Shown here: positions 22,628 to 43,475 of the stretch, piece by piece
Layout of the letters: the number at the start of each line of letters is the position of its first letter
Position numbering within the stretch: the stretch's first letter is position 1
Assembly: GCA_029856155.1 (NCBI GenBank)
Contig: JAHQWL010000052.1
Coordinates: 64,001 to 128,000, forward strand
DNA from: Promethearchaeia archaeon
GTDB taxonomy: Archaea > Asgardarchaeota > Lokiarchaeia > Sigyniarchaeales > SOKP01
Direction: 5' to 3'
DNA length: 64,000 nucleotides
Program-made: the position numbers and the translations under genes
Notes under the pieces: generated by a model
What the model saw: only the letters and a program-made list of their open reading frames with translations
Told to the model about the DNA's origin: nothing
Databases searched by the model: none

Positions 22628-23368
22628 ATTTTAACTGAAAAACAAAAAGCAAGATACTCAAGGCAAATTATATCCCCCTTAATCGGAGAGGAAGGTCAAG
22701 AAAAATTATCAAAAATTAGAGTTCTACAAATTGGAGCGGGGGGCTTAGGTTCACCATTTGCTTTATACATTACTGCTGCGGGAATAAACGAGTTAACTAT
22801 AATTGATAATGATGCTTTAGATATCTCAAATTTGCAAAGGCAAATACTTTACAATGAAACCCAAATTGGAGAGGATAAGGTAAAATTAGCAAAAGAAGTA
22901 TTATCGAAACTTAATTCTGATGTTAAGATAAGTTCATATAAAGATTATGTCAATGAGGAGTCTATCAAGAAATATTTAAAGGAAGTTAGTTATGATTTCA
23001 TAGTAGATTGTAGTGACAATTTTAAAACCAAATTTTTAGTTAATAAGATTGCCATAGAAAATAATCTAAGATGTATAATTGCTGGAATAAAGGACTTTTA
23101 TGGTCAAATTATAACTATTAATCCAAAAGAAACGGCTTGTTATCAATGTGTTTTCTCTAAACCATTAGAAACTTCCCCAGATGAGGGACCTTTACCTGTT
23201 ATTGGCGTAACTCCCGGAATTCTAGGAACTCTAGAGGCTTTAGAGGTGATAAAAACAGCTTTAGGGCTTCCAAACTTAGAAAATAAAGTTCTAATGGTTA
23301 ATCTAATGGATTTAAGATTTAATATTATAGATATTGTAAAAAACGAAAAATGTATATGCTCAAAATGA
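22628..23368 (+). CDS. ThiF/MoeB/E1-like adenylyltransferase (true start upstream of the track call, probably ATT)
   Basis: Frame upstream of 22832 encodes RYSRQI, GQEKL, IGAGGLGS, IIDND..SNLQRQ; also DCSDNF and CYQC. Confidence 0.85.
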   Translation: MLTEKQKARYSRQIISPLIGEEGQEKLSKIRVLQIGAGGLGSPFALYITAAGINELTIIDNDALDISNLQRQILYNETQIGEDKVKLAKEVLSKLNSDVKISSYKDYVNEESIKKYLKEVSYDFIVDCSDNFKTKFLVNKIAIENNLRCIIAGIKDFYGQIITINPKETACYQCVFSKPLETSPDEGPLPVIGVTPGILGTLEALEVIKTALGLPNLENKVLMVNLMDLRFNIIDIVKNEKCICSK

Positions 23369-35763: not shown

Positions 35764-36870
35764 TTAATTATAGCTCGTTGCTAAAGTAAGAATATTAAAA
35801 TTTAACTCTAATTTTGAACTATTTAGAATCGCTTCTTGTAAAATGTTACCTTCTTTTGATAGTGGTAATTTTTTTGACTTAGCAACCCCTTCCATTAGTT
35901 TCTCTCTTTCAATATCTAAAAAACCCATTTCTATAGCATTCTTAATTATTAAATTTAATACTAATAATTGAAATTGCTCTTGAATAGCATCCCAAATCAA
36001 CCCCATCTCTTTTAATTGAAGGGTTATTTCTTCAGCCATAATGTCTAGATCATAAATCATGTCGTAAATACCTTCTTGGAGGTTAATTATTTCGTCTATT
36101 AATTTATCCTTGATGAGTCTGAGGGTTGTGGTACCTAATAAATCTTCTTCATGGAAATAAAAATCATTTTTCTCACGTTTAATCAAATAAAAACCAAAAT
36201 CATCTTTTATTAGTTTTACTCTAGCAAGATAATTAATTGCTTCTTTTGAGACTTTATGGATTATGCAGAATTGATCCAAATCAATTTTGTATCCTGCAAA
36301 TTTTTGAGTATTCTTCTCATCTAAATGCCAATACTTTCTAGCTAAAGCGCCTTGGCCGAGAATAGAGTTGTAGAAGATATAAAAAAGTGATAAATAAAGA
36401 TCTCGATCTTGCTGTAATTCAAAAAAATTATCTCCTATTTTGGATATAATTCTTACAATATGAATTATAAATGGATCTTCTACATTAATCACTTTATAAA
36501 AATTTATTAAATTTTCAAGCTTTCTGACGTTTTCTTTTAATTCATTAACTATAAATACTTCATCTTTTAGCTTTAAGGGAGTTTCTCCTAGCTTTTCAAA
36601 CCCTTTTTCTGTTATTACATAACTTCTATATTGTTTATTTGTAGTTTTATCTGTAATTAAGCGTTGTTCAATATTTTTGTTTTTTCTATGAAGATTCAAA
36701 TATTTAGAGACTGTAGATCTGCTTAAATTTGAATATTTCACTAAATTAGTAAATCTTTGTGGTCCTAGATTTCTAAGAATAAATAATATTCTCCTACTAT
36801 TATCTTCAATATTACCAGATTTCTTTAATAATTCAATCTTTAATTTTTTAGAGATATTCCAAGTTTCCAT
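35764..36870 (-). CDS. Winged-helix transcriptional regulator
   Basis: RFTNLVKYSNLSRSTVSKYL...YVITEKG. Confidence 0.72.
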   Translation of the reverse strand: METWNISKKLKIELLKKSGNIEDNSRRILFILRNLGPQRFTNLVKYSNLSRSTVSKYLNLHRKNKNIEQRLITDKTTNKQYRSYVITEKGFEKLGETPLKLKDEVFIVNELKENVRKLENLINFYKVINVEDPFIIHIVRIISKIGDNFFELQQDRDLYLSLFYIFYNSILGQGALARKYWHLDEKNTQKFAGYKIDLDQFCIIHKVSKEAINYLARVKLIKDDFGFYLIKREKNDFYFHEEDLLGTTTLRLIKDKLIDEIINLQEGIYDMIYDLDIMAEEITLQLKEMGLIWDAIQEQFQLLVLNLIIKNAIEMGFLDIEREKLMEGVAKSKKLPLSKEGNILQEAILNSSKLELNFNILTLATSYN

Positions 36871-37061
36871 AATTGCAAAGTATAAGATAATATATATAAA
36901 TTTATACTTTTTTTCTGGACTTAGACTAAAAAAGGTTGAAAAAACAAATATATGTAAATTTAGTATATATTAAGGATATTATTAAGTAAAATTTTATAAA
37001 TTCGAATTTTAATGTTAGAAATTGGAAAATAATTAAAAATTAATTAAAAAATTTTAAGGAA

Positions 37062-37259
37062 ATGACAATAGAAGATCCCAATATATTGAAGAGAATAAAG
37101 ATCATTGAAGAAAGGTTAGATAAAATTGAGCAAAGAATTTTAAATCTAGAACATAGAATAGGTAGGGGTCTAACACCACCACTACCAAAACCGGGTCCTA
37201 TACACCCTCCAGGACCTCCTGATCGACCCGGACCTCCTCCAGAACCTTTTCGATTTTAA
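37062..37259 (+). CDS. Small coiled-coil protein with proline-rich tail
   Basis: IEERLDKIEQRILNLEHRI then PPLPKPGPIHPPGPPDRPGPPPEPF; AAGGA RBS. Confidence 0.65.
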   Translation: MTIEDPNILKRIKIIEERLDKIEQRILNLEHRIGRGLTPPLPKPGPIHPPGPPDRPGPPPEPFRF

Positions 37260-37417
37260 AAAACCTTCTAAAATTTATATAGAATATAAATTTAGCCATC
37301 TCCCCATTATATAAACTGAAGTTCGGAATATTGAACGAAAATCCTTAATTTATCGGTTGGATAATTTATAACTAATTCAAATTAATTTAAAAAATATTAA
37401 AAAGTGTGTGATTAAAA

Positions 37418-37672
37418 ATTACGCAATATCGTTTCAGACTTACTGGTGTTCCTCCAGATCAAGCTATAAAACTAATAGAATTAGATCCTAACAATTCTAT
37501 AGCAGAAATTAAAAAGACTGTACAGCGAGAGTATAAATTAAATCCAATTTTAGCCATACAATTCATTTTTAAAGGGAAAGTGCTACCTGACCAACTAAAA
37601 TTTGCAAAGATTGGAATTCATCCAAAAAAAGACGTAATTACTGTTATGGCTACGCAAGCTGGTGGATTTTAG
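37418..37672 (+). CDS. Ubiquitin-like (beta-grasp) protein ending GG-F; ATT start; missed by ORF track
   Basis: (M)TQYRFRLTGVPPDQAIKLIELDPNNSIAEIKKTVQREYKLNPILAIQFIFKGKVLPDQLKFAKIGIHPKKDVITVMATQAGGF*; GTGAT RBS 5 nt upstream. Confidence 0.85.
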   Translation: MTQYRFRLTGVPPDQAIKLIELDPNNSIAEIKKTVQREYKLNPILAIQFIFKGKVLPDQLKFAKIGIHPKKDVITVMATQAGGF

Positions 37673-37710
37673 TAATCTGAGCTACTTAATAGGATAAGTA
37701 TTTATCACGG

Positions 37711-37757
37711 GGTTATTAAGAGAAAATAGCCGGCTTTTTTTCTCTTTTTTTCTTTTT
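37711..37757 (+). terminator. Hairpin plus oligo-T tract between convergent genes
   Basis: GGTTATT/AATAGCC stem followed by long T runs. Confidence 0.35.
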
Positions 37758-39140
37758 TTATTTTTCTGAAGTATTTTCCTTATCAATTGATGGTGTTAAT
37801 TCTTCATCAGGTTTAGATTCTGTCTCTTCCGGTTTTTCCTCTTTAATCTTTATATTTTTTGTAACAAGAAAATTTTGGAGCTCTTCAATTCCTACTTTAT
37901 CTTTATCTAAAAATCTCTTATCTACTAGATATTCACTGAATTCCTTTACTACTAAAGCTACGTCTTCTGGGTAATAACGCTTTCTAATAAGAAAACCTTT
38001 ACGCTCTAAAGAATGTTCAGAATAATACCAATAAAAAATTACTGTTATTAGTGTTATCATGAAATTATTTATGAGATTAATTTGATTTCGGTTAGCAAAA
38101 ACTCCTGTGAGACTTCCTGCACCTGTAATCATAATAATTTGTCCTTCAATATATAAGACTGTAAAAGCAAAGAGGAAGAAAGCCATATTGTTAGAATTAA
38201 ACAGGAAGGAATCATAAACTTTTTCTCCTAAACCCCTCAGGACCATAATTGCGGTAAAAACCAAGAGTATGATATCAATCAGTCCTGAAACAATATCAGG
38301 TTCTGTAGAGGCTTGAGTAATATTTAGTAATGCGTTAAAGAAACTAAACGATCTAAACCAGAGTAAAATCCAGATTAGAATATAGAACATGGAACTATAT
38401 GAATTCGTTGAACTAATTTTTTTACTTCTTATGTATAATGTAATTAAACGCCATGAGGTAATAATTAAGATTATAAGAACAACTATACTACTTGCAATAA
38501 GTAAGGTTCTAGGACCTCCAGCGGGAAATTCAAGTAAAAATCCATAAAAAGTGGCTAATTCAATCAAAACAGGTATAATCAAGGCTAAAATTAAAAGAAT
38601 TATACAGATTAATTCCTTTTTTTTTGAAGATCCATATTTATCTATTATTTTATTATTTACTTTATCAGAAATATCATCGAAACCTTTTCTTAAAAAAAGG
38701 ATTTGAATAAGGTTCCACCCAAAGTAAATAATTATGAAAAGAGCTGGAAGAATTATATCCCATCCAAGAAATTGAATAGGTAATTCAGTAGACGTACCAA
38801 TCAGAAAATAGGGAAGTATAATAAAAAAACTAATAAAAAAATTGATTGTAAAACAAATTAGTTTCCATTTATCGAATTTTTTTTCAGGACCAAAAAGATA
38901 TTTATTTAATTGAGGAATTAATCCCTCAAACATTAATAAGATAAAAGTTATAGCCAAAACTGTTGCTAAAAACAATATTAAATTTCCAAAAATTTCGTTC
39001 GGAATAAGACTTAAAAGACTAATTAATAAGGATGCTATAAAGAAAATTATCGTGTATAAGAAATGAGAATTATTAAAGATCATATGAAAGTGCTTATCTA
39101 ACAGAGCTTGAACTTTATTTCCAAATTGTTTTAAATTCAT
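37758..39140 (-). CDS. Hypothetical polytopic membrane protein
   Basis: ~10 TM, charged C-terminal tail. Confidence 0.75.
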   Translation of the reverse strand: MNLKQFGNKVQALLDKHFHMIFNNSHFLYTIIFFIASLLISLLSLIPNEIFGNLILFLATVLAITFILLMFEGLIPQLNKYLFGPEKKFDKWKLICFTINFFISFFIILPYFLIGTSTELPIQFLGWDIILPALFIIIYFGWNLIQILFLRKGFDDISDKVNNKIIDKYGSSKKKELICIILLILALIIPVLIELATFYGFLLEFPAGGPRTLLIASSIVVLIILIITSWRLITLYIRSKKISSTNSYSSMFYILIWILLWFRSFSFFNALLNITQASTEPDIVSGLIDIILLVFTAIMVLRGLGEKVYDSFLFNSNNMAFFLFAFTVLYIEGQIIMITGAGSLTGVFANRNQINLINNFMITLITVIFYWYYSEHSLERKGFLIRKRYYPEDVALVVKEFSEYLVDKRFLDKDKVGIEELQNFLVTKNIKIKEEKPEETESKPDEELTPSIDKENTSEK

Positions 39141-42866: not shown

Positions 42867-43475
42867 ATGACAGAAGATTTACCCGAGAAAATTCAATTAG
42901 AGGGAATAATTGAAGAAGATAAAGTTATAATTACTGATAAAAAGGGAATTGAAGAATTCCATAACATTTCATATATAGGAACTATTGAAAAAGATAATAA
43001 TGGGCAAGAGATTTTAACACTTAGTCCTATTGAGGTATTACTCTTATCTGAAAGGAATAGAATATTATTATGGGAAAGTAATGATAAGAATAAGTTGTTG
43101 TATGACTTTGAAAATATAATAACTTATTTTACTCAATTTGATGATAGATTATGGCATAAATATATAATCTACAGCGATTTAAGAAAAAGGGGATATATTG
43201 TCCGTACAGGTTATGGTGATGGAATCGATTTTCGAGTATATAAGAGAGGAGCTGATTTTGAAAAAGATTCTGCAAAGTTCCTAATATTTCCAGTATTTGA
43301 AGGAAATCCAATTGAATTGAGAGATCTGGATAAGATGTCCAGAGTTGCTATGAGCTCTCGGAAAGATCTGATAGTTGCCACCGTGGATAGGTTAAGTAAA
43401 CCCATTTACTACAGCGTCAAAAAGTTCCAAATTTTAAATAAGGAAGACAATAACAATATAAATAATGCCAGATAG
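42867..43475 (+). CDS. endA: tRNA-intron endonuclease subunit (catalytic His absent; likely structural subunit)
   Basis: YSDLRKRGY, GIDFRVY, RVAMSSRKDLIVATVD. Confidence 0.82.
   Translation: MTEDLPEKIQLEGIIEEDKVIITDKKGIEEFHNISYIGTIEKDNNGQEILTLSPIEVLLLSERNRILLWESNDKNKLLYDFENIITYFTQFDDRLWHKYIIYSDLRKRGYIVRTGYGDGIDFRVYKRGADFEKDSAKFLIFPVFEGNPIELRDLDKMSRVAMSSRKDLIVATVDRLSKPIYYSVKKFQILNKEDNNNINNAR

What the first reader, a model, noticed from the sequence alone, without database searches (positions are those of the whole stretch)
37418..37672. Hidden ubiquitin-like gene with a GG-F pro-form C-terminus
This 84-codon ORF is invisible to ATG/GTG/TTG callers. It shows a ubiquitin-type pattern (SIAEIKK helix, QFIFKGKVL resembling ubiquitin RLIFAGKQL) and ends AGG-F. 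The extra Phe would have to be removed by a JAMM/DUB-type protease before conjugation, as with eukaryotic Ub/Ubl precursors. No E2/E3 genes are adjacent.
Basis: partly seen in the sequence, partly recalled or inferred. Interest (0 to 1): 0.7.

Follow-up and report, generated by a model that had tools for sequence, protein, structure and literature searches.

The report
Loki ubiquitin gene with ATT start
This is the already published ubiquitin of Loki-type Asgard archaea; here it starts at ATT instead of ATG, so gene finders miss it, and its one extra last residue varies freely between relatives and is probably trimmed off before use.

Summary
The gene is real: an 84-codon ORF (37418-37672 +), Pfam ubiquitin hit, beta-grasp model, pN/pS about 0.02. 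It is the orthologue of Lokiarch_37670|Ub (Hatano 2022, PMC9192718), identical at 80 of residues 2-83; the published protein binds a Loki UEV protein in two-hybrid assays. It was found in 134 of 161 Lokiarchaeia genomes. ATT sits at the Met position, 6 nt behind a GTGA box. Orthologues use ATG, ATT, TTG, ACG, GTG or ATA there, and other genes of this genome also appear to start at ATH, so the start looks like a lineage habit. Gly-Gly is conserved; the residue after it is not, and a quarter of orthologues end at GG. JAMM trimming is therefore plausible but inferred. E1, E2, RING, JAMM and UEV genes lie elsewhere; linkage in relatives points to the unpartnered C35 E1/E2. Side results in orthologues, not in this copy: 13 carry a 30-36-nt bulge-helix-bulge intron nine codons before the GG end, and some encode Ub-GG-Roadblock fusions. 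The scan had already noted this gene, its ATT start and such introns in other genomes.

The parts
37418..37672 (+). Lokiarchaeial ubiquitin gene (84 aa, ATT to TAG), orthologue of Lokiarch_37670
37404..37411 (+). Shine-Dalgarno-like box GTGTGTGA. GTGA (37408-37411) ends 6 nt before the ATT, the modal spacing of ATG genes in this genome; that spacing puts its TGA in frame and closes the frame upstream
37418..37420 (+). ATT near-cognate start codon, at the position of Met1 in orthologues
37559..37585 (+). QFIFKGKVL. I50, G53 and K54 align with ubiquitin I44, G47 and K48 and are invariant in 107 homologues
37640..37641 (+). Empty intron site (A^CT of Thr75). 13 distinct orthologues carry a 30-36-nt bulge-helix-bulge intron exactly here; this copy does not
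37661..37666 (+). Gly82-Gly83, the conserved di-glycine
   Evidence: G82 invariant, G83 in at least 90% of 45 sequences
37667..37672 (+). Phe84 cap and TAG stop; the cap is variable or absent among orthologues
37733..37769 (+). T-rich tract after the gene, probable archaeal-type terminator, overlapping the end of the convergent 460-aa gene (inferred from sequence only)
   Evidence: the bacterial-type terminator scan found none

Best explanation
The gene encodes the main, class-wide ubiquitin of Lokiarchaeia. (1) It is transcribed as a stand-alone gene (weak RNA support) and translated from ATT, placed by a GTGA Shine-Dalgarno box, giving Met-Thr-Gln (position shown by homology; initiation inferred). 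(2) It folds as a ubiquitin beta-grasp with the I44/G47/K48-type surface (model). (3) A JAMM/Rpn11-like protease removes Phe84 to expose Gly-Gly. The cap drifts because such a protease also serves as deconjugase and is indifferent to the residue after GG (inferred). (4) It is activated by the 527-aa E1 on contig C35, passed to the nearby C35 E2 and, with a RING protein, joined to target lysines (partner choice inferred from gene linkage and elimination). (5) The tag is read by UEV-Vps23/ESCRT-I (two-hybrid result published for the orthologue) and perhaps by other receptors.
For: Identity with the published Lokiarch_37670|Ub, which itself ends in a five-residue cap after GG, and its two-hybrid interaction with a Loki UEV protein. 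A 68%-identical homologue of the N-terminal 68 residues of that Vps23 is in this genome. AlphaFold pLDDT 92.8; TM about 0.76-0.83 to ubiquitin 1ubq and 0.75 to Caldiarchaeum ubiquitin in its Rpn11 complex. Strong purifying selection. The genome holds 4 ThiF/E1, 3 E2, 7 JAB and 4 RING-type matches. The C44 and C54 E1/E2/JAB clusters have their own Ubls, while the C35 E1/E2 pair has none. The C35-type E1 lies three genes from this Ub in G039; a 68%-identical C35-type E2 lies two genes from it in G049; this Ub domain is inserted inside C35-type E2 proteins. The C35 E1 occurs in 129 of 161 genomes of the class at E<=1e-90 and in the five outlying genomes tested at a lower threshold. Caldiarchaeum pro-ubiquitin is inert until Rpn11 cleaves it (PMC5654768). 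One RNA contig matches 37445-37705 with no difference, and the flanks are uncovered.
Against: No biochemistry was found for activation, conjugation or processing of this Loki protein. The linkage to the C35 enzymes rests on two genomes plus a few fusions; none of 80 close loci has an E2 or JAB within 8 kb. The tail is ATQAGG, not LRLRGG. The RNA evidence is two low-depth contigs of one run without strand information. ATT initiation is not shown by ribosome or peptide data.
Confidence: 0.7

Rival explanations
1. SAMP/Urm1-like use: the protein is activated by the short MoeB/UbaA-type ThiF (window 22628-23368) and conjugated without E2/E3, or acts as a sulfur carrier.
For: That ThiF lies within 8 kb of the gene in 37 of 80 relatives' loci. 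No E2/E3 is adjacent.
Against: Pfam calls it ubiquitin, not ThiS. The genome has five separate ThiS-family proteins for that E1. Unrelated genes (nadA, HTH regulator, hycI) are equally or more syntenic, so the ThiF linkage looks like ordinary synteny. I44/G47/K48 equivalents are invariant, and the protein is linked to the C35 E1/E2 in two genomes.
Confidence: 0.1
2. The cap needs no JAMM: a general carboxypeptidase removes it, or the protein works largely unconjugated as a binding ligand for UEV-type domains, so the cap is nearly neutral.
For: The cap is 0-1 residue in most orthologues and changes often (about 20 gains/losses on a poorly resolved gene tree). The supplement lists the orthologue for the two-hybrid set with its cap; the construct actually cloned was not checked. 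Some fused copies lose the GG.
Against: GG is almost invariant in the free gene, which a non-conjugated ligand would not need. Long tails and in-frame Ub-GG-Roadblock fusions with 88-95% identical Ub parts need an endopeptidase to release free Ub.
Confidence: 0.12
3. The near-cognate start is a selected, gene-specific control that keeps ubiquitin synthesis low or ties it to start-codon fidelity (aIF1 level), like infC AUU in bacteria.
For: ATT is held in 44 distinct orthologues although synonymous sites are near saturation. A separate clade uses ACG. Near-cognate starts carry GTGA in 46 of 50 cases against 24 of 64 for ATG starts (kin are not independent). aIF1 is encoded.
Against: 64 orthologues use ATG, including members of the same genus, and the start changes back and forth on the gene tree. 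ATH codons behind a GTGA/GGTG box are 2.5-fold enriched (37 against 14.8 expected) in 118 long ORFs of this genome lacking an early canonical start, and 3 other genes of about 57 orthologue pairs lack a canonical start at the Met position. The habit is genome-wide.
Confidence: 0.15
4. Pseudogene or sequencing error (a mutated ATG).
For: There is no canonical start codon.
Against: The same ATT is present in dozens of independent assemblies with saturated synonymous divergence and almost no amino-acid change. It is the only copy of this family in the genome.
Confidence: 0.01

Closest known systems
Lokiarchaeum sp. GC14_75 ubiquitin, Lokiarch_37670 (Hatano et al. 2022, PMC9192718, Supplementary Data 1)
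   Same: 80 of 82 residues identical over positions 2-83; same ATQAGG end; also capped; reported to interact with a Loki UEV-domain protein in two-hybrid assays.
   Different: Listed with Met1 and a five-residue cap; here an ATT start and a single Phe. The passages read do not discuss start codon, cap variability, cognate E1/E2, introns or fusions.
Caldiarchaeum subterraneum pro-ubiquitin/Rpn11/E1/E2/RING operon (PMC5654768) and the Helarchaeia pro-ubiquitin (bioRxiv 10.1101/2023.07.25.550441)
   Same: Ubiquitin fold (TM about 0.75 to 6fnn), GG hidden by a C-terminal extension, and E1, E2, RING and JAMM genes in the genome.
   Different: Only about 18% identical. The gene is an orphan, not in the operon. 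The cap is 0-1 residue and variable, not a 9- or 4-residue peptide. Two further Ubl cassettes exist in the same genome.
Eukaryotic ubiquitin, NEDD8 and SUMO precursors
   Same: Fold; I44/G47/K48 equivalents; very high conservation; made with extensions; head-to-tail fusions to other proteins occur in relatives (compare UBA52/RPS27A, from own knowledge).
   Different: About 20% identity; no LRLRGG; the Q-x-G-G end is SUMO-like but the SUMO-like Pfam model is below its cut-off.
cbf5 pre-mRNA BHB intron of Crenarchaeota (PMC2738675) - applies to orthologues only
   Same: Short insert in a coding gene with bulge-helix-bulge geometry whose removal restores the reading frame.
   Different: Different gene and phylum; patchy distribution; absent from the window copy; splicing not shown in RNA here.

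Membership tests
Lokiarchaeial ubiquitin (Lokiarch_37670 orthologues) | Near identity over the full length to the published protein | tested here: met
   80/82 identical over residues 2-83, by direct comparison with the supplement sequence
Lokiarchaeial ubiquitin (Lokiarch_37670 orthologues) | Class-wide, mostly single-copy gene under purifying selection | tested here: met
   134/161 genomes of the class; not found with this query in 239 other Asgard genomes at E<=1e-12; pN 0.012, pS 0.69
Lokiarchaeial ubiquitin (Lokiarch_37670 orthologues) | Binds UEV-Vps23 | not tested
   Published two-hybrid result for the orthologue; a Vps23 homologue is present on C32
Ubiquitin family (PF00240), conjugatable modifier | Beta-grasp fold and Pfam score above cut-off | tested here: met
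   36.8 bits against cut-off 25.4; model and Foldseek
Ubiquitin family (PF00240), conjugatable modifier | Conserved C-terminal Gly-Gly | tested here: met
Ubiquitin family (PF00240), conjugatable modifier | E1, E2, RING E3 and JAMM encoded in the genome | tested here: met
Ubiquitin family (PF00240), conjugatable modifier | Isopeptide conjugation to lysines | not testable with these tools
   Needs biochemistry or di-Gly proteomics
Eukaryotic ubiquitin proper | LRLRGG tail and high identity to ubiquitin | tested here: not met
   Tail ATQAGG; about 20% identity
Operonic archaeal pro-ubiquitin system (Caldiarchaeum type) | Ub gene in one operon with E1, E2, RING and next to Rpn11 | tested here: not met
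   Orphan here and in 80 close loci
Operonic archaeal pro-ubiquitin system (Caldiarchaeum type) | Extension after GG in all members | tested here: not met
   Present here (Phe) but absent in 30 of 118 orthologues
Operonic archaeal pro-ubiquitin system (Caldiarchaeum type) | Extension removed by a JAMM protease | not testable with these tools
   Seven JAB-domain candidates with the H-x-H-x7-S-x2-D motif
SAMP/ThiS/MoaD sulfur carriers | ThiS-family profile match | tested here: not met
   No ThiS hit for this protein; five other ThiS-family genes in the genome
SUMO | SUMO-like profile above cut-off | tested here: not met
   Rad60-SLD 15.2 bits against cut-off 23.8
Archaeal BHB intron (orthologues only) | Two 3-nt bulges around a 4-bp helix, with covariation | tested here: met
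   Central helix 97.9% of cells paired, with a compensatory change at one pair; 30 double-change cells against 9.7 in shuffles; slid controls 36-58% paired. The structure was derived from these sequences
Archaeal BHB intron (orthologues only) | Cutting after the second bulge base restores the intron-less reading | tested here: met
   All 13 give KKDVITVMATQAG; unspliced forms have TAG (3) or a frameshift (31 nt, 1)
Archaeal BHB intron (orthologues only) | Spliced mRNA or circular intron observed | not tested

The most novel reading that the evidence does not exclude
The Loki ubiquitin gene family shows, in a prokaryote, three gene-level traits otherwise known from eukaryotic ubiquitin genes or rare in archaea. 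(i) Obligatory mRNA splicing: in several lineages a tRNA-type intron sits nine codons before the GG end, so a conjugatable protein exists only after EndA cutting and ligation; the likely cognate E1 has similar stop-containing inserts in its ATP-binding motif in nine genomes. (ii) Head-to-tail Ub-GG-Roadblock fusion precursors that would need a deubiquitinase. (iii) Repeated fixation of ATT/ACG starts, showing routine near-cognate initiation in Lokiarchaeia. Only (iii) and the one-residue cap are in this window's copy. The splicing part alone I put at about 0.85, cleaved fusions at about 0.4, and a regulatory purpose for either the start or the intron at about 0.15.
Probability: 0.35. Interest if true: 0.7.

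Novelty: already known. Interest (0 to 1): 0.35.

Why it matters
The protein itself is published, so the finding mainly corrects annotation: standard callers drop or mis-start the core ubiquitin gene in over a third of the Lokiarchaeia genes sampled (some database entries rescue it with a false start read with TGA as Trp, or with an upstream GTG), which can distort surveys of the Asgard ubiquitin system. The work makes three open points testable: which E1/E2 pair serves this orphan ubiquitin (C35 type predicted), whether Asgard ribosomes start routinely at AUU/ACG, and whether Asgard mRNAs are spliced by the tRNA machinery. In the papers I could search, such splicing is reported for archaeal coding genes essentially only for cbf5.

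Tried and rejected
Reverse strand of the interval: closed by many stops. Upstream in-frame GTG (37406) as start: followed at once by TGA, and by TGA-TAA in many orthologues, so read-through is rejected; the in-frame TGA follows from a GTGA box at 6-nt spacing. UFM1 resemblance, considered from memory: no such Pfam or PDB hit. Rfam scan of 36800-37900: only a chance miRNA match. Sigma-70 promoter and terminator scan: at chance level and unsuited to archaea. The 16S 3' end was not found in the assembly, so the anti-SD could not be checked. The Pfam Vps23_core search rang nowhere, controls included, and is uninformative. Minimum-energy folding reproduces the BHB only partly (L079 z about 0; L056 z -2.0; L203 z -2.8), so the intron case rests on covariation and frame restoration. 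G183 and G018 'stops inside' were alignment overhang or a partial copy, not introns. Literature searches for Asgard mRNA introns and for the locus tag found nothing on them; the 2026 preprint on Asgard tRNA introns has no mention of mRNA; the library is incomplete. Complex prediction was not run: its controls cannot tell one E1 or JAMM paralogue from another. The gene tree rests on 246 nt with saturated third positions, so its change counts are rough.

Full report
Observation. Window 37418-37672 (+) translates to 84 residues from an ATT codon to TAG and ends ATQAGG-F. The open frame begins only two codons earlier, after a TGA. The first in-frame GTG is codon 55, so the gene is absent from an ATG/GTG/TTG listing. 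Neighbours are a divergent HTH regulator, a 65-aa coiled-coil/proline-rich ORF, a convergent membrane protein, nadA, hycI, a histidine kinase, a tRNA intron endonuclease and a PIN-ATPase; none is an E2, E3 or JAMM.

It is a real, conserved ubiquitin-fold gene. Pfam ubiquitin scores 36.8 bits against a cut-off of 25.4. AlphaFold gives a beta-grasp at pLDDT 92.8 that matches ubiquitin, SUMO, NEDD8 and Caldiarchaeum ubiquitin bound to Rpn11. I50, G53 and K54 align with ubiquitin I44, G47 and K48 and are invariant in 107 homologues. Against 29 orthologues of the same genus, 69% of synonymous sites differ but only 1.2% of non-synonymous sites. The gene is found in 134 of 161 genomes of the class and, with this query at E<=1e-12, in none of 239 other Asgard genomes. 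Record titles name Promethearchaeota/Lokiarchaeia. One salt-marsh metatranscriptome holds a 261-nt contig identical to 37445-37705 and a relative's contig over the 5' part, with no cover of the flanks. That is weak support for expression: low depth, no strand, DNA carry-over not excluded.

It is already published. An earlier scan note pointed to Hatano et al. 2022, and I checked it. Supplementary Data 1 of PMC9192718 lists Lokiarch_37670|Ub, identical at 80 of residues 2-83 and ending in a five-residue cap after GG. The paper reports two-hybrid interaction of Loki ubiquitin with a UEV-domain protein. A 68%-identical match to the N-terminal 68 residues of that Vps23 lies on contig C32.

The start. 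In 121 distinct gene sequences the codon at this position is ATG 64 times, ATT 44, TTG 6, ACG 5, GTG 1 and ATA 1. The near-cognate starts almost always have a GTGA box upstream (46 of 50, against 24 of 64 for ATG; kin are not independent). Here the box ends 6 nt before the ATT, the modal spacing for ATG genes of this genome. The habit is not special to this gene. Of about 57 orthologue pairs with a relative's ATG aligned, four G000 genes have no canonical start nearby, including this one and the window's ThiF gene. Among 118 long ORFs without an early canonical start, ATH codons behind a GTGA/GGTG box occur 37 times against 14.8 expected (Poisson p about 1e-6). A few percent of genes in this lineage therefore probably start at ATH. 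Initiation itself is inferred.

The cap. Gly82 is invariant and Gly83 nearly so, but the tail is absent in 30 of 118 readable orthologues and otherwise is F (21), I (21), V, Y, N, C, A, L, S, K, R, Q or longer. The Phe is therefore not a conserved signal. Caldiarchaeum pro-ubiquitin is inert to E1 until Rpn11 cleaves it, and the same enzyme deconjugates and cuts N-terminal fusions (PMC5654768); a Helarchaeia ubiquitin is also a pro-form. The genome encodes seven JAB-domain proteins with the metal-binding motif. The simplest reading is that a resident JAMM trims whatever follows GG, which lets the tail drift. This is inference.

Partners. The genome has 4 ThiF/E1, 3 E2 and 4 RING-type matches. 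The C44 cluster has its own Ubls ending in Ala-Gly and the C54 cluster one ending GG-S, both only distantly similar to this protein; the C35 E1 (527 aa) and E2 have no Ubl beside them. The C35-type E1 is class-wide. It lies three genes from this ubiquitin in G039. A C35-type E2 (68% identical) lies two genes from it in G049, and this ubiquitin domain is found inserted in C35-type E2 proteins. I therefore take the C35 pair as the probable cognate enzymes, at moderate confidence. The short ThiF in the window is a weaker candidate: five ThiS-family carriers exist for it, and its synteny is no tighter than that of nadA or hycI.

Side results in orthologues, not in this copy. About 15 of the 120 listed near-length homologues and two same-genus genomes carry an insert between KKDVI and TVMATQAGG. 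DNA of 13 distinct cases shows 30-, 31- or 36-nt inserts at the same base (window 37640^37641). They have bulge-helix-bulge geometry, and cutting after the second base of each bulge restores the intron-less reading in every case; three contain TAG and one shifts the frame, so the GG end needs splicing. The central helix changes in step with the Val codon (TTAT/ATAA, TCAT/GTGA or ATGA, TAAT/ATTG). 89% of cells pair, with 30 double changes against 9.7 in shuffles and 36-58% pairing in slid controls (the structure was drawn from these sequences, and relatedness inflates such counts). G039 has a different 30-nt stop-containing hairpin insert about four codons upstream. Nine genomes have 30-nt stop-containing inserts in the GxGxxG motif of the C35-type E1. 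Spliced RNA was not tested. In the searchable literature such coding-gene introns are described for crenarchaeal cbf5 (PMC2738675); this scan's earlier notes already report many in Lokiarchaeia. Second, some genomes encode in-frame Ub-GG-x-Roadblock fusions with 88-95% identical ubiquitin parts, whose Roadblock partner is a free gene in G000; one such fusion has lost the GG.

Verdict. Observation confirmed, interpretation partly supported. The gene is the known Lokiarchaeial ubiquitin, hidden from callers by a lineage-wide near-cognate start; its cap is ordinary and variable. Interest 0.35, most of it from the testable side results: cognate E1/E2, AUU/ACG initiation, and intron-bearing and fused orthologues.

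Noticed in passing
L079:1646-1708, L080:1714-1776, L208, L210, L211, L051, L056, L058, L257-L261 (site equivalent to window 37640^37641): 30-36-nt bulge-helix-bulge introns in 13 ubiquitin orthologues; three with TAG, one frameshifting; covarying central helix.
   Followed up: yes
L203:4675-4745 (G039): A second, different 30-nt stop-containing hairpin insert in the same gene, in the HPK-KD region: a probable independent intron gain.
   Followed up: partly
L262-L270 (C35-type E1 in G033, G232, G025, G018, G019, G199, G201, G200, G198): 30-nt stop-containing BHB-like inserts inside the GxGxxG ATP-binding motif of the E1; G033 has inserts in both its ubiquitin and its E1.
   Followed up: partly
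P0123-P0126, P0143; L252:5001-5645; L204:1080-1724: Head-to-tail fusions of this ubiquitin, GG intact, to a Roadblock/LC7 protein that is a free gene in G000 (C1:63106-63489); one decayed copy has lost the GG.
   Followed up: partly
P0150-P0152, P0157; L255:3481-4182: This ubiquitin domain inserted inside C35-type E2 proteins; one lies between an SNF2 helicase and a DNA methyltransferase in a defence-like locus, and another is fused to a methyltransferase.
   Followed up: partly
window 22628-23368 (+): ThiF/MoeB-type gene that also appears to start at ATT behind a GTGA box; standard calling truncates it by about 70 codons.
   Followed up: partly
G000 contig C26, minus strand: An actin-like ORF (DNG-TG motif, recognised from memory) and about 30 other long ORFs with an SD box plus ATH/CTG/ACG and no early canonical start.
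   Followed up: no
window 37062-37259 (+): 65-aa coiled-coil plus proline-rich ORF just upstream on the same strand, present near the ubiquitin gene in 48 of 80 relatives' loci.
   Followed up: no
window 35764-36870 (-): Divergent winged-helix regulator present near the ubiquitin gene in 76 of 80 loci; a candidate regulator of it, or simple synteny.
   Followed up: no
window 42867-43475 (+): tRNA intron endonuclease (EndA) gene 5 kb downstream, within 8 kb of the ubiquitin gene in 43 of 80 loci.
   Followed up: partly
L203:114-3056 (G039): A long frame with two tandem E1 domains, the second of the C35 type, separated from the ubiquitin gene by a VapBC-like pair.
   Followed up: no
L091, L096-L098, L100: A clade of orthologues with ACG at the start position, all with a GTGA box and all ending at GG.
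   Followed up: partly
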